From IMG/VR virus record IMGVR_UViG_3300046524_000185: a stretch of DNA of 64,000 nucleotides. One strand, given 5' to 3'. Position 1 is the stretch's first letter. The number at the start of each line of letters is the position of its first letter. Position numbers and translations under genes: made by a program. This stretch comes from an uncultured virus (IMG/VR IMGVR_UViG_3300046524_000185) (taxonomy: Duplodnaviria > Heunggongvirae > Uroviricota > Caudoviricetes). Shown here piece by piece: positions 14,406 to 57,852 of the stretch. The notes under the pieces were generated by a model. It did no database searches, was not told the origin of the DNA, and saw only the letters and a list, made by a program, of their open reading frames with translations.

Positions 14406-15443
14406 TTAATGAGCTGTTTTTCCAGAGCGCCAGCGGTTCTGCATCCACTTCAGACGCTCGGCTGCTTCACCAGGATCAAACTCGAAACGGATGAAGTTCA
14501 TCTCGCTCGTCGCGTAGGGATCGATGAGTGCCACAGGGCAATTGTAGAGATCCTTGGCGTCGAGGTTCAGCTCCTCGGCGTAGCGGTCAATCTTCTTGTA
14601 CGAGGCGACCTGGAGAGCGTGCCAGATCTGCGAGGATGATGGACGCATGCCATGGGCATAACCCGAGGTGTGGATGTGGCCGGCGACGTAGATGTCGTGG
14701 TGATCGCCGTCGAGCTGAGCTGCCTTCGCAGCACCATAGGACTCCGACCACATGGACTTACCGCGGAACCCGTGGACCGAATAGATCTTCACGTCACGTC
14801 CGTTGGGCAGCTGCAGCTGCAGACGAACCTTGTTCGACTTGTGGACCAGAGCGTTGTTCGCGAGGATGTGCTTCAGGATGTCGCCACCCTGCCCCCACAG
14901 ATCGTGGTTGCCGTCCGTGTAATAGAGCCAGTCGATCTTCTGGAGAACGTACTCGACCAGTGCCAGGGCTTCGTCCGCCGAGGTGCTCTGTTCCGAGTAG
15001 AGACGAGCCAGACGGCCAGCCCAGTTGTTGAAGACGTCACCGACGTTGGCCGCATATAGACCTTCATTCCGGCCGTCGAAGAGATTGACGTGCTCGAGCA
15101 CCTGGGCCAGGTCTGTGCCATCGTCGTCCAGGTGCATGTCACCGAAGAAGCCAATGCCGATTGGGCCGTCGCGCTTGACGCGAACCGGGATGATTTTCTC
15201 CCGCTCGAATTTCTCCCGCTTCTGAGCGAACTGGTTGATGCGGCGCTCGACCAGGGCTTCGATGTCGATCGAGGGTTTTGGCTCGTCGACAAGCTCGAAG
15301 TCGCTGTCGTCCCAGCGTTTCTTCATCCCACGGATGCCAGACTCGGAGATGTCGTAGCCCTGCTCCCGCAGATAGCGAGCGGCGGGTCTGAAGCCCCCCG
15401 TCATGCCAACTGCCTGCTTGATGAGGTCTTCAGATGGACGCAT
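14406..15443 (-). CDS. Calcineurin-like metallophosphoesterase with possible N-terminal HTH
   Basis: GDMH, GDVFN, GNHD, HG and GHIH motifs in canonical order. Confidence 0.85.
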   Translation of the reverse strand: MRPSEDLIKQAVGMTGGFRPAARYLREQGYDISESGIRGMKKRWDDSDFELVDEPKPSIDIEALVERRINQFAQKREKFEREKIIPVRVKRDGPIGIGFFGDMHLDDDGTDLAQVLEHVNLFDGRNEGLYAANVGDVFNNWAGRLARLYSEQSTSADEALALVEYVLQKIDWLYYTDGNHDLWGQGGDILKHILANNALVHKSNKVRLQLQLPNGRDVKIYSVHGFRGKSMWSESYGAAKAAQLDGDHHDIYVAGHIHTSGYAHGMRPSSSQIWHALQVASYKKIDRYAEELNLDAKDLYNCPVALIDPYATSEMNFIRFEFDPGEAAERLKWMQNRWRSGKTAH

Positions 15444-16779: not shown

Positions 16780-17270
16780 TAGAGCGACACCATCGGGAAC
16801 TCAGGCGGGATGAACATGCGGCACGGAATCTGGAAGTTCGCGCCTTCGGTCATGTTGCGGAGCTCGAGCGAGATGCTCTGTCCGGAGATGAGCTCGCGGA
16901 TGCGGCCGACGTACCACATGCGTTGCTCGAATTTGTTCACATCCTTCTCGACATGATCGCGGAGGACGCGACGACGGATCACGGTGGCCTGGTCGAGCTG
17001 GCCCTTGATCGCGGCCGAGTTAAAGATCCCGAACGGGTTCATGACCTGGAGAATTGGCCGGCTTTCCTCGCCGTCCGCCGATCGAGTGTCGCCGGTCATG
17101 CGTGTGGCCATGCCTTCGTAAAGCTGTCCCTGCCACGTGGTGGTGTTGTCGGTCTTGAAGCGGAAGATGACCGGTTGGTTCTTCAGGATGATCGTGTAGA
17201 GATCGACCAGCGCGTCGGCTGTGAGTTTCTGTGCTTCTTGTTTGTGCTCAAGAGGCGCAGTCGACGTCAT
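16779..17270 (-). CDS. Minor tail protein L-like
   Basis: TWQGQLY, RPIL, ATVIRRR motifs; lies between M-like and K-like genes. Confidence 0.7.
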   Translation of the reverse strand: MTSTAPLEHKQEAQKLTADALVDLYTIILKNQPVIFRFKTDNTTTWQGQLYEGMATRMTGDTRSADGEESRPILQVMNPFGIFNSAAIKGQLDQATVIRRRVLRDHVEKDVNKFEQRMWYVGRIRELISGQSISLELRNMTEGANFQIPCRMFIPPEFPMVSL

Positions 17271-17647
17271 GGCTGGGTCGTGACCTCCATCTCGAAGGAT
17301 TCGACAGTACCTTGACCGTCCTCAGCGACACGGTATTTCAGCGGCTTGCTGAAGCGAACGGTCAAAAGCCCCTTCCCCGGCAAAGGCAGAATGAACTTCT
17401 CGAACAGCTTGTGCTTCAGGTAGAACTCTTCCAGACGAGCGATGTTGATCTTGGGCATGATACCCGTGAGGACACGGCCAGTCTCGTCCGTGTAAAACTT
17501 CATCGTCTTGTAGTGGAGCGTGTACTTTACCTGATCAGGTCCGCGAGGTCTGGCTGCAAATTCATAGCCTCGCCCGAGCTGCACCTTTGGAGAGGACTCT
17601 GGGTATTCCGTTGTCCAGGTGAAGTACGGGAAATCATACGTTTCCAT
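17267..17647 (-). CDS. Minor tail protein M-like (distal tail)
   Basis: VQLGRGYE, LEEFYLKH..F motifs; start METYDF; position after the tape measure gene. Confidence 0.65.
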   Translation of the reverse strand: METYDFPYFTWTTEYPESSPKVQLGRGYEFAARPRGPDQVKYTLHYKTMKFYTDETGRVLTGIMPKINIARLEEFYLKHKLFEKFILPLPGKGLLTVRFSKPLKYRVAEDGQGTVESFEMEVTTQP

Positions 17648-18315
17648 GCGGGTTGATATGGGTTTGATTCCCTTGCAATACAAGGGTTTGCGGTCGCTGC
17701 GCTCTTAGTAGATAAACCTTGAGTATTCGTGGTGCTTTCTTTTTTCCACCCTATCCTCCGCGACAACCAGCCGAGCCACTTCGGGCACAGAAGCCTGATC
17801 AGGTTGAAGTCGTTCTTCTCGCCCTTCCGCTTCTGAATCTTTCGCTCGATCAGCCGCATATCGTGGGCTTTCCGGATCGTCTTCTGAACCATGGATCTCG
17901 AGACAGCCGCACGGGCAGCGATGGCGTCGACGGCGCAACGAATGACAGAGCACTCACCAGCCAGCTTCGCCAATGTTGTGAGGACCGCCTGCTCAGACAT
18001 GGTGAACTGGGTAGCGATCTCCGGAGGAAGAAATCCCGCTGCAACCAGTCCACGACGGCGGGCAATCGACGCCTCCCTCTTCCGGGGCTGTGGCTTCTTC
18101 CGCTCGATCTCGGTGAACACCGTGATGATCCGTTGGTGGATCAGAGTCTGGCGTAGTTTCAGGGCCGCGTCGAGCTGGTGAGCTCGCCGGTCGCTGAGCT
18201 CGCCTTTGTGGTGCTGATCCCAAAGGATCCTCGAGAGATTGGTGCAGACCTGAAGTTTTGTGGCTTTGGAAATAGCACGTTTGAGTTGCAGAGCAACCAA
18301 TAGGTTTCCCGTCAA
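17527..18315 (-). CDS. HTH protein, putative plasmid replication initiator
   Basis: HTH-like DAIAARAAVSRSMVQKTIRKA..LI plus wing RKGEKNDFNLIR; very basic; GAGGT SD before a TTG start; ctRNA-like unit in its leader. Confidence 0.6.
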   Translation of the reverse strand: MTGNLLVALQLKRAISKATKLQVCTNLSRILWDQHHKGELSDRRAHQLDAALKLRQTLIHQRIITVFTEIERKKPQPRKREASIARRRGLVAAGFLPPEIATQFTMSEQAVLTTLAKLAGECSVIRCAVDAIAARAAVSRSMVQKTIRKAHDMRLIERKIQKRKGEKNDFNLIRLLCPKWLGWLSRRIGWKKESTTNTQGLSTKSAATANPCIARESNPYQPAWKRMISRTSPGQRNTQSPLQRCSSGEAMNLQPDLADLIR

Positions 18316-18369
18316 AGCTGTACCTCACTTAGGTATAAGATATCGTTCGAGAAATCGGCAAATTTCCCG

Positions 18370-18472
18370 TTGACACCTGATTCGTTTTATGAGAGCTTTG
18401 ACCTTGTGAAGGGGCTTCAAGAGCTCTCTGAAGGTTTGAACAAGCACTGGGCGGCAACCCGGTGCTTTTTCG
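18370..18472 (+). ncRNA. Putative counter-transcribed antisense RNA (ctRNA) with its promoter and terminator
   Basis: TTGACA-cct-GATTCG promoter resembling repABC ctRNA promoters; terminator AAGCACTGGG-CGGCAA-CCCGGTGCTTTTT; antisense to the Rep-like gene leader. Confidence 0.62.
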
Positions 18473-18625
18473 TTTGTGGGTAAATTACGTCAAGACTCAC
18501 GTCCCCCGTTGCAAATCAGTGATATTGTGGCCTAGTGGTTGAGTCGTGCCAACCCCTGAGCAGAAAACGCGCAGGGGTCCACAGATTAGAATTGTCGATA
18601 GATCGTTAAGGTGCTGTTAAGGGTT

Positions 18626-18991
18626 ATGCAGTTTTTCAGAATTTTGTCCGCAGCAGCGATCACGTTGATCGCCACCACCGCTTACGCTGCCAGTGAGCCG
18701 GCACCTACCGGGACTGACAAGAAGGTCGCGGACATCATTCGCAAGTCAGCAAAGGATCCATGGTCGGTTCGGGATCTGAAGGCTGGCAAGCCCCACCAGG
18801 CGGTCGACAATTTCCGCTATCCTCGAGCATGGGCAGTCTGCACGACCTTCTATGCGAAGAATAGTTTCGGGGCGTACAGCCAAGGGTTCTACCTGGTGTT
18901 CTTCAAGAACAACCAGGTGATCGATGCACTCGGCGGGCCGGGGATCGCACCTCATCCTGAGTGCGGTCCCCTTCATTCCGTCAAATTCTAG
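18626..18991 (+). CDS. Secreted/periplasmic protein, moron-like
   Basis: Signal peptide MQFFRILSAAAITLIATTAYA; AVC...AKNSFGAY motif; opposite strand to the tail operon. Confidence 0.65.
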   Translation: MQFFRILSAAAITLIATTAYAASEPAPTGTDKKVADIIRKSAKDPWSVRDLKAGKPHQAVDNFRYPRAWAVCTTFYAKNSFGAYSQGFYLVFFKNNQVIDALGGPGIAPHPECGPLHSVKF

Positions 18992-25999: not shown

Positions 26000-26203
26000 A
26001 TGCGTCGTCTTTCAACTAGCCTTCCAGACGAGTTATTTGCACTGCTTGAAGGCAGAGCAGAGATCAATCGTCGATCGATGAACAAGGAAGTCATCTTCCT
26101 TCTTGAAGCCGCGCTCGCTGCAGAGCACGGCGATAATCTGGAGATCCTCCGGACTGTCATGATTGCCCAGGGCGGGCTCTCGTCTCTCAGCCAGTCGCAG
26201 TGA
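26000..26203 (+). CDS. Arc-like ribbon-helix-helix regulator
   Basis: LPDEL..L..RAE.NRRSMNKEV..LLE matches the Arc family pattern. Confidence 0.75.
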   Translation: MRRLSTSLPDELFALLEGRAEINRRSMNKEVIFLLEAALAAEHGDNLEILRTVMIAQGGLSSLSQSQ

Positions 26204-56893: not shown

Positions 56894-57568
56894 ATGCCGG
56901 TTATTGCCGTTGCAAACCCGAAGGGTGGGGCAGGGAAGTCGACGACGACCCTCGTTCTTGCCACCACACTGGCCGCTCAGGGTGCCAGCACCATCATTCT
57001 CGACTGTGATCCGAACCAACCAATCACCGGCTGGCGTAGCGGATCGTCGAAGAACGCCGTGATCGTCGACGGCGACGTGAACGAGAGCAACATCACTTCG
57101 AAGCTCGACGAGTACCGAAAGAAATTCCAGTTCGTGTTCGTCGACCTTGAAGGTGTCGCCAGCCGTCTGATGTCGCGAGCACTCGCTCGAGCCCAGCTGG
57201 TGGTCATTCCAATTCAAGCCAGCCCGACCGACGCCGAGCTCGCCGCCAAGGCCATCCGCCTGATCCAGGAAGAGGAGCAGGCATTCGAGAAGCGGATCCC
57301 GTACCAGATCCTGTTCACTCGAACCTCTCCGGTGATCGCCACCAAGCTTGAAAAAGCAATTCTGGCGCAGCTGAGGGGAGGGGAGGTGCCTTCCTTCAAC
57401 AATCACTTGAACGAGCGTGCGGCCTACAAGTCCATGTTCTTCCATCAGCTCGATCTCGACGAGCTCGACCCGCAAGAGGTCAACGGCGTGCCCCAGGCCC
57501 GCGAGAACGCCCTGCGTCTCGCTGAGGAGCTGGTCAACACCGTGGTCCAGAAGCAGGAGGCAGCATGA
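56894..57568 (+). CDS. parA: ParA partition ATPase (short, type Ib)
   Basis: [10 protein letters not shown] deviant Walker A, DCDPN, FVDLEG; no N-terminal HTH. Confidence 0.9.
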
Positions 57569-57852
57569 CTGGCAAGAACCTGGGCTTCAGTGCCCTCGCG
57601 AACATCAAACCCGAGGTCGACGACGCGCCGGCCGTTCCCGATCGCAAGATCGACGAGGTGGCCGAGAAGCATGGTTTCGTCTCCCGCGAGCCGATCCAGA
57701 AGATGAGCCGACGCAAGCCGGCCGAACCTTCGGCCAACCTCAACATCCGACCACCGATCTCGACCTTCAACCGGTTCCTCCAGTTCTGCGAAGAAAACCG
57801 CTACAGCTACCCCGAGGCGCTGAAGGAACTCATGGATAGGGCCAAGATATGA
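57565..57852 (+). CDS. Small partition partner (ParG/RHH-like centromere-binding candidate)
   Basis: ATGA-coupled to parA; flexible N-terminus then ANLNIR strand and two helices. Confidence 0.7.

What the first reader, a model, noticed from the sequence alone, without database searches (positions are those of the whole stretch)
17527..18480. Rep-like gene with ctRNA wedged between tape measure and distal tail genes
Seen: a basic HTH gene interrupts the normally contiguous TMP-gpM junction and overlaps gpM by about 120 nt. Its leader carries, on the other strand, TTGACA-cct-GATTCG (contains a GANTC site), a GAGAGCT/AGCTCTC stem (18391-18428) and a U-tailed terminator (18442-18470). More GANTC sites follow near 18494 and 18541. 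Established: repABC/repC replicons control the initiator with a short ctRNA from a similar promoter, and CcrM methylates GANTC. Inference: a stand-alone initiator that does not look like RepC, under ctRNA control, with the origin perhaps in the AT-rich 3' part (17650-17750).
Basis: partly seen in the sequence, partly recalled or inferred. Interest (0 to 1): 0.8.

Follow-up and report, generated by a model that had tools for sequence, protein, structure and literature searches.

The report
Unrecognised plasmid replicon inside phage tail
A small cassette wedged among the tail genes of a soil phage looks like a plasmid replication module of an undescribed, widespread family, held in check by a small antisense RNA, which would let the phage persist as a plasmid and would explain how many small alphaproteobacterial plasmids with no recognised replication gene copy themselves.

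Summary
The gene (17527-18315, minus strand, 262 aa) encodes a winged-helix protein of a large unnamed family (phrog_15967; 1,137 clusters) and is not RepC. Context points to an initiator. A homolog fills the repC slot after repA-repB in POI1126, a prophage shown to replicate as a plasmid. It is present on 6 of 7 small plasmids examined that lack any Pfam Rep family. Among near-complete related phages, 5 have gene plus ParA and no integrase, while 4 have an integrase and lack the gene. The antisense promoter-terminator unit covaries and recurs in 61 of 97 family loci against 2 of 618 controls. A DNA-level box, an A+T dip and a GANTC peak lie in the gene's 3' part, supporting an origin inside the gene. 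Corrections: the 18391-18428 stem overlaps the -10 box and so probably belongs to the mRNA; a second insert (18626-18991) shares the junction. Replication and RNA expression are untested. The scan noted the same cassette before on near-identical DNA of another genome (two notes). I found no paper on the family.

The parts
17527..18315 (-). Candidate replication initiator gene, 262 aa: N-terminal helical bundle (1-70), basic helix, winged helix (97-189), disordered tail (190-262)
17723..17757 (-). Conserved DNA box in the coding region just past the winged helix; candidate initiator binding site at the origin edge
   Evidence: codon test, consensus, position; function inferred
17640..17750 (.). 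A+T-enriched patch with GANTC at 17666 and a palindrome at 17670-17686; candidate unwinding region
   Evidence: function inferred
17267..17644 (-). gpM-like distal tail gene, overlapped by 118 nt; host context, not part of the cassette
18316..18330 (-). Ribosome-binding site and spacer of the initiator gene
18348..18369 (-). mRNA-leader hairpin at the S-element position; its loop repeats the loop of the ctRNA target hairpin
   Evidence: folds at -8.2 kcal/mol on the minus strand (0 of 200 shuffles) and -2.9 on the plus strand
18370..18398 (+). Predicted ctRNA promoter: -35 18370-18375, GANTC 18379-18383, -10 18393-18398
   Evidence: same layout as a repABC ctRNA promoter fetched here
18391..18428 (-). 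Covarying stem; probably formed in the mRNA leader because its arm at 18391-18398 overlaps the -10 box
   Evidence: the strand is not settled by energy, the assignment is inferred
18405..18473 (+). Predicted counter-transcribed RNA, about 69 nt, ending in an intrinsic terminator (stem 18442-18467)
   Evidence: start inferred, no RNA data
18524..18552 (-). Predicted promoter of the initiator gene (-35 18552-18547, -10 18529-18524) with GANTC at 18541 in the spacer
   Evidence: conserved
18626..18991 (+). Second insert: small secreted-type protein (phrog_2320), exchanged for other genes in related phages
56894..57852 (+). ParA and small partner, the probable partition system of the same replicon

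Best explanation
The cassette is the plasmid-state replicon of a temperate, Seuss-like phage-plasmid of rhizobia-type hosts. A promoter at about 18550 transcribes a 200-nt leader and the gene. The winged-helix protein binds a conserved box in the 3' part of its own gene and opens the adjacent A+T-rich patch, and host machinery then replicates the circle, which the distant ParA pair segregates. A 69-nt antisense RNA pairs with the leader and lowers initiator synthesis, most likely by freeing a stem arm that pairs with the translation start, thereby setting copy number and incompatibility. GANTC sites next to both -35 boxes and in the origin would tie this to CcrM methylation. Shown: the gene, family, fold, conserved leader elements, covariation, genomic contexts. 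Inferred: initiator activity, origin, RNA expression, the switch, any CcrM role, the plasmid state of this phage.
For: (1) POI1126 has repA-repB-small ORF-homolog, no RepC and no Rep_3, and replicates as a plasmid with no replication gene identified by the authors (PMC5492332, passages). (2) Of 74 plasmid records with a homolog most are small Methylobacterium-group plasmids. All ORFs of 140 aa or more from 7 whole plasmids were scanned: 6 have no Pfam Rep family and all 6 have ParA. (3) Near-complete Seuss-like genomes: gene plus ParA and no tyrosine integrase or resolvase in 5 of 5 carriers; integrase and no gene in 4 of 4 non-carriers. One carrier is a closed plasmid record, pMaq22A_3p. (4) 67 of 115 family members match an O-like initiator PHROG at E<=0.001. 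(5) Antisense terminator in 34 of 97 leaders against 44 of 618 controls, with a -35 in 22 of 97 against 2 of 618; relaxed test 61 of 97 against 2 of 618. Ten of 28 pairs change on both sides, 0 of 500 shuffles. The terminator folds better on the antisense strand in 8 of 8 loci. (6) Past the winged helix, mean GC falls to 0.53 and 118 GANTC sites fall in 6 bins against 35 in the 14 bins before (108 loci). The box glycine uses GGG in 66 of 68 against 402 of 1313 in the core, and the lysine AAA in 57 of 59 against 93 of 480.
Against: No experiment. No significant match to a solved initiator; the best fold matches are generic winged helices, mostly regulators. Some carriers have another initiator: Rep_3 on pAU40rrn, RepC on a Shinella plasmid, primase-type genes on 2 of the 7 plasmids. 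ParA was within 2.5 kb in only 22 of 49 loci, and one non-carrier phage has ParA too. The phage has its own primase-helicase. One subclade sits just before HNH/terminase/portal genes, a position also used by late activators. Equilibrium folding showed no change in overall start-site accessibility with the ctRNA site blocked in 8 of 9 loci. Arm-to-start pairing rose strongly in 5 of 8 loci but not in the window itself, and beat shuffled start regions in only 3 of 8. The phage genomes compared are related, so the 5 and 4 are not independent events.
Confidence: 0.8

Rival explanations
1. The protein is a transcription regulator (of par genes, or a late-gene activator) under antisense control, and the plasmids replicate by something else.
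For: Weak GntR/MarR/Crp-type HTH hits in up to 51 of 115 members; top fold matches CodY and CRP; one subclade lies directly before packaging genes; here the gene precedes tail genes.
Against: It occupies the repC slot in POI1126 and occurs on plasmids with no phage genes. A regulator would not explain the DNA-level box, A+T dip and GANTC peak inside the gene or the exclusion of integrases. The window protein reaches no curated cut-off.
Confidence: 0.1
2. The family is an initiator, but in this phage the cassette is an accessory or decaying passenger at a moron hotspot and the phage does not live as a plasmid.
For: The junction takes unrelated inserts in 3 other phages; the gene is 31-39% identical between phages whose gpL is 90-93% identical; the phage has a primase-helicase; par lies 39 kb away.
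Against: The gene is intact at the same site in 8 of 8 carrier loci, with leader covariation; all 5 near-complete carriers keep ParA and lack an integrase; fast initiator turnover is expected if incompatibility groups diversify (inference).
Confidence: 0.07
3. The unit is an antisense-controlled addiction (type I toxin-antitoxin-like) or other stability module rather than a replicon.
For: A short antisense RNA facing the leader of a basic protein is also the layout of type I systems (recalled); the module travels with par genes.
Against: The product is a 262-aa winged-helix protein, not a short membrane peptide; this would leave the 6 Rep-less plasmids and POI1126 without an initiator.
Confidence: 0.03

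Closest known systems
repABC replicons of Alphaproteobacteria (p42d, pTiR10, pSymA)
   Same: ctRNA upstream of the initiator, S-element-position hairpin, GANTC-rich promoter and origin, origin inside the initiator gene, MarR-like N-terminal HTH (PMC6090056, passages and section 12). A repABC ctRNA promoter fetched here has the same -35, GANTC and 17-nt spacing.
   Different: The protein is about 240-260 aa against about 400; no RP-C match in 115 members; profile comparison with RepC gives probability 2.7% over 39 columns; no Rfam S-element or ctRNA hit; the candidate origin is in the 3' tail, not mid-gene; par is usually a short ParA with a small partner and often not co-transcribed.
repC-family replicons (pRmeGR4a, pSmeLPU88b repC)
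   Same: Initiator outside a repAB operon, controlled by an upstream antisense RNA (PMC10194956, passages).
   Different: Those use true RepC; this family does not.
RHEph10 / pLM21S1 phage-plasmids
   Same: Rhizobial phages with plasmid replication and partition genes (PMC4447125, PMC5537653, passages).
   Different: RHEph10 carries a true RepC and no member of this family; different phage group. pLM21S1 could not be fetched.
Ochrobactrum phage POI1126 and Aurantimonas phage AmM-1
   Same: Both carry a homolog directly after partition genes; AmM-1 shares the ctRNA unit (E 3e-4) and its ParA is 63% identical to the window's.
   Different: There the gene adjoins par; here it sits in the tail operon. 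The gene is annotated as regulator or hypothetical and was not tested in the POI1126 paper.
Lambda O-type and HTH_36 initiators (including Paracoccus REP modules; RepQ, RepY, RepW)
   Same: N-terminal winged helix with weak profile and fold similarity to O-like proteins.
   Different: Similarity covers the HTH only. The passages seen for RepQ, RepY and RepW and the Paracoccus modules mention no ctRNA control; their sequences were not compared directly.

Membership tests
repABC / repC family | Initiator homologous to RepC (Pfam RP-C) | tested here: not met
   No RP-C hit in 115 members or in 5 carrier phages; the same search rings on two RepC carriers; hhalign probability 2.7%.
repABC / repC family | Short counter-transcribed RNA gene upstream of the initiator | tested here: met
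   Predicted from promoter, terminator, covariation and enrichment; the transcript itself was not observed.
repABC / repC family | Rfam ctRNA or S-element sequence family | tested here: not met
   No hit in the window or in 7 family loci, while a true repABC locus scores 82 bits for S-element.
repABC / repC family | Origin inside the initiator gene, near an A+T-rich region | tested here: inconclusive
   Sequence signature present; origin activity cannot be tested here.
repABC | repA-repB co-transcribed upstream | tested here: not met
   Absent at this locus; met only by the POI1126 homolog.
Plasmid replication initiator (function) | Confers autonomous replication | not testable with these tools
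   Needs the suicide-vector test.
Lambda O-type initiator | Homology beyond the HTH, iterons in the gene, helicase loader downstream | tested here: inconclusive
   Weak N-terminal hits only; the downstream gene is gpM; iterons were not searched with a repeat tool.
Phage-plasmid | Complete phage with partition and replication genes, no integrase, maintained as a circle | tested here: inconclusive
   Gene content met in 5 of 5 near-complete carriers; circular maintenance is on record only for pMaq22A_3p.
GntR / MarR / Crp transcription factors | Curated family score and effector domain | tested here: not met
   The window protein is below every cut-off; no effector domain in the model.

The most novel reading that the evidence does not exclude
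This is the founding example of a large undescribed initiator family of Hyphomicrobiales that uses repABC-style control (ctRNA, origin inside the gene, CcrM sites) with a different protein. It drives many small Methylobacterium plasmids, POI1126, satellites and a whole branch of Seuss-like phages that traded the integrase for this cassette and swap it at one tail-operon site. Its ctRNA has two loop targets in the mRNA, the facing hairpin and a duplicate-loop hairpin nearer the start.
Probability: 0.55. Interest if true: 0.75.

Novelty: new variant of a known kind. Interest (0 to 1): 0.62.

Why it matters
It would name the missing initiator of POI1126, whose authors found only partition genes (PMC5492332), and of many small Methylobacterium-group plasmids that typing tools leave unassigned. 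It makes that question testable with a 1.1-kb clone. It would add a phage-plasmid group among Seuss-like phages, show that repABC-type RNA control is portable across initiator proteins, and could supply new compatible vectors for methylotrophs and rhizobia.

Tried and rejected
No Rfam match in the window. Leader DNA against plasmids gave only chance-level hits. No RNA holder was listed, which is no evidence either way. Sequence and Foldseek searches of solved structures gave nothing significant; the wide fold search listed generic winged helices and no plasmid initiator among the 50 rows, which does not exclude one. The covariance model found only 2 distant loci at E<0.001 among 19 sources besides the two close ones, and missed the Methylobacterium leaders that the pattern test found. 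The start-site accessibility test was flat. Energy did not settle the strand of the first stem: plus favoured in 5, minus in 3 of 8. The family tree was a quick tree only; it did not decide whether the tail-site genes came in once or several times. RepC membership was rejected. The Atlas returned unnamed clusters and HTH_36. Ten literature searches found no paper on this family; the library lacks most subscription journals, no supplements were read, and the primary repABC papers were not read.

Full report
Observation. The gene runs 17527-18315 on the minus strand, 262 aa from a TTG with a good ribosome-binding site, and overlaps the gpM-like gene by 118 nt.

The phage. Its capsid protein is 51% identical to that of Caulobacter phage Seuss and 52% to one on the closed 85.7-kb plasmid pMaq22A_3p of Methylobacterium aquaticum. 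It has its own primase-helicase, a ribonucleotide reductase and a ParA. The closest named homolog of the gene (69%) is from a Rhizobium, so a rhizobial host is inferred. Of 28 loci found through gpL and examined, 8 carry the gene between tape measure and gpM, 3 carry other inserts, 13 are contiguous and 4 could not be judged. The site is therefore a general insertion spot, and the gene turns over fast: 31-39% identity between phages with 90-93% identical gpL.

The protein. It matches phrog_15967, of unknown function (E 4e-37), and weakly O-like initiator families. 1,137 cluster representatives match at E<=0.001. The model is confident over residues 1-190, a helical bundle plus a winged helix, and disordered after that, so the part overlapping gpM is unstructured tail. 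Fold matches are generic winged helices; the best viral matches are the POI1126 protein and a 307-aa entry of the same length as the AmM-1 homolog. It is not RepC (with positive controls in 101 and 123).

Why an initiator. POI1126 replicates as a plasmid, and its authors found only two partition genes (PMC5492332, passages). The record shows repA, repB, a 39-codon ORF and then the homolog, with no RepC or Rep_3 in the genome. AmM-1 and a Methylocystis plasmid have parA, partner, homolog in a row. Homologs occur on 74 plasmid records, 60 of them listed. I chose 7 small ones and scanned all 232 ORFs of 140 aa or more: one has Rep_3, six have no Pfam Rep family; two of those six have primase-type genes, four have nothing else replicative. 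A Shinella plasmid carries both the homolog and RepC. Among the Seuss-like genomes at least 86% complete, five carry the gene and ParA and lack integrase and resolvase; four lack the gene and carry an integrase, one of them also ParA. These genomes are related, so this is a pattern and not nine independent events. In 91 further loci ParA was seen in 31, and in 22 of the 49 with full flanks.

The RNA. Nine phage leaders align with conserved -35, GANTC, -10 and terminator, and a variable middle. A true repABC ctRNA promoter fetched from the Shinella plasmid has the same layout, with its S-element beside the -35. With 17-nt spacing the -10 is 18393-18398, which puts the start near 18405 and gives about 69 nt, a little longer than the 55-59 nt given for repABC (PMC10194956). 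The terminator folds better on the antisense strand in 8 of 8 loci. Ten of 28 pairs change on both sides among 7 distinct rows, above all 500 shuffles and the slid controls; the structure came from these same sequences. Of 144 loci, 108 remained at under 80% identity and 97 had enough upstream DNA: 34 have an antisense terminator against 6 on the sense strand and 44 of 618 control windows; 22 also have a -35, against 2 of 618. A relaxed test, written after I had seen the Methylobacterium leaders, gives 61 of 97 against 2 of 618. No RNA data were available.

How control may work. Binding of the ctRNA would free the other arm, which in the window is complementary to the start codon region (-15.8 kcal/mol, 1 of 1000 shuffles). 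Support is mixed: the pairing rises on blocking in 5 of 8 loci but is already favoured in the window without the RNA, beats shuffles in 3 of 8, and overall accessibility hardly changes. A further hairpin at 18348-18369 folds on the mRNA strand and repeats the hexamer loop of the ctRNA target; both loops switch together in L027 and L028. Of 61 loci, 29 have the same hexamer at both places, 3 a different one, 21 only at the terminator, 8 at neither; some of the 29 lie in stems and many loci are close kin. A second kissing site is my inference. In repABC the RNA refolds the leader into a terminator (PMC6090056); no U run follows the hairpin here, so I favour translational control, at perhaps even odds.

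The origin. RepC origins lie inside the gene near an A+T-rich region (PMC6090056 section 12). Across 108 family loci anchored on the end of the winged helix, GC drops to 0.53 at +90 nt and GANTC sites peak at +60 to +240. A box there is constrained as DNA: near-exclusive GGG and AAA codons against GC-rich usage in the core (68 loci with the protein motif), and a CACG-N2-TA element conserved at 82-95%, third positions included (78 loci).

Against. Nothing is shown experimentally. One subclade, several of whose leaders showed no ctRNA unit, sits before packaging genes in small phage-like elements, twice with a PC4 gene upstream; that fits a satellite replication gene but also a late activator.

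Novelty. The control logic is known from repABC and repC replicons, but the protein fails the RepC test, so it works like one without being a member. Ten searches found no paper on the family (listed under Tried and rejected); subscription journals and supplements were not seen. Two earlier notes of this scan reached the same reading on near-identical DNA; I had written my reading before seeing them and do not count them as support. Verdict: probable new initiator family in a ctRNA-controlled replicon, confidence 0.8, interest 0.62.

Noticed in passing
window 18626-18991 (+): Secreted-type small protein (phrog_2320) facing the tape-measure gene; related phages have other signal-peptide proteins at this site, as expected of lysogen-expressed morons such as exclusion proteins.
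   Followed up: partly
L028, L030, L031, L032 upstream of the leader: A small ORF resembling ribbon-helix-helix regulators is transcribed away from the initiator promoter; it is absent in the window. Paired GANTC-containing inverted arms (window 18494 and 18541) could be its operator. The RHH label is my reading, not a family search.
   Followed up: no
window 14406-15443 (-): A metallophosphoesterase-type gene (phrog_7339) interrupts the tail operon between the gpI-like and gpJ-like genes.
   Followed up: no
L019 26342-27154 (-) (pMaq22A_3p): A closed Methylobacterium plasmid is a complete Seuss-like phage with the same gene family and ctRNA unit at a different site, so the cassette entered this phage group at more than one place.
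   Followed up: partly
L157, L170 and sister loci: A subclade lies in small phage-satellite-like elements before HNH, terminase and portal genes, with PC4 upstream in two loci.
   Followed up: partly
L008 (pAU40rrn): The 9.4-kb rRNA-operon plasmid of Aureimonas carries both a Rep_3 initiator and a member of this family with its antisense unit.
   Followed up: partly
L037 4033-4614: An ORF that looks like an HNH homing endonuclease occupies the same slot before gpM in an integrase-bearing relative (label from reading the sequence).
   Followed up: no
window 26000-26203 (+): Arc-like regulator on the opposite strand between tail genes.
   Followed up: no
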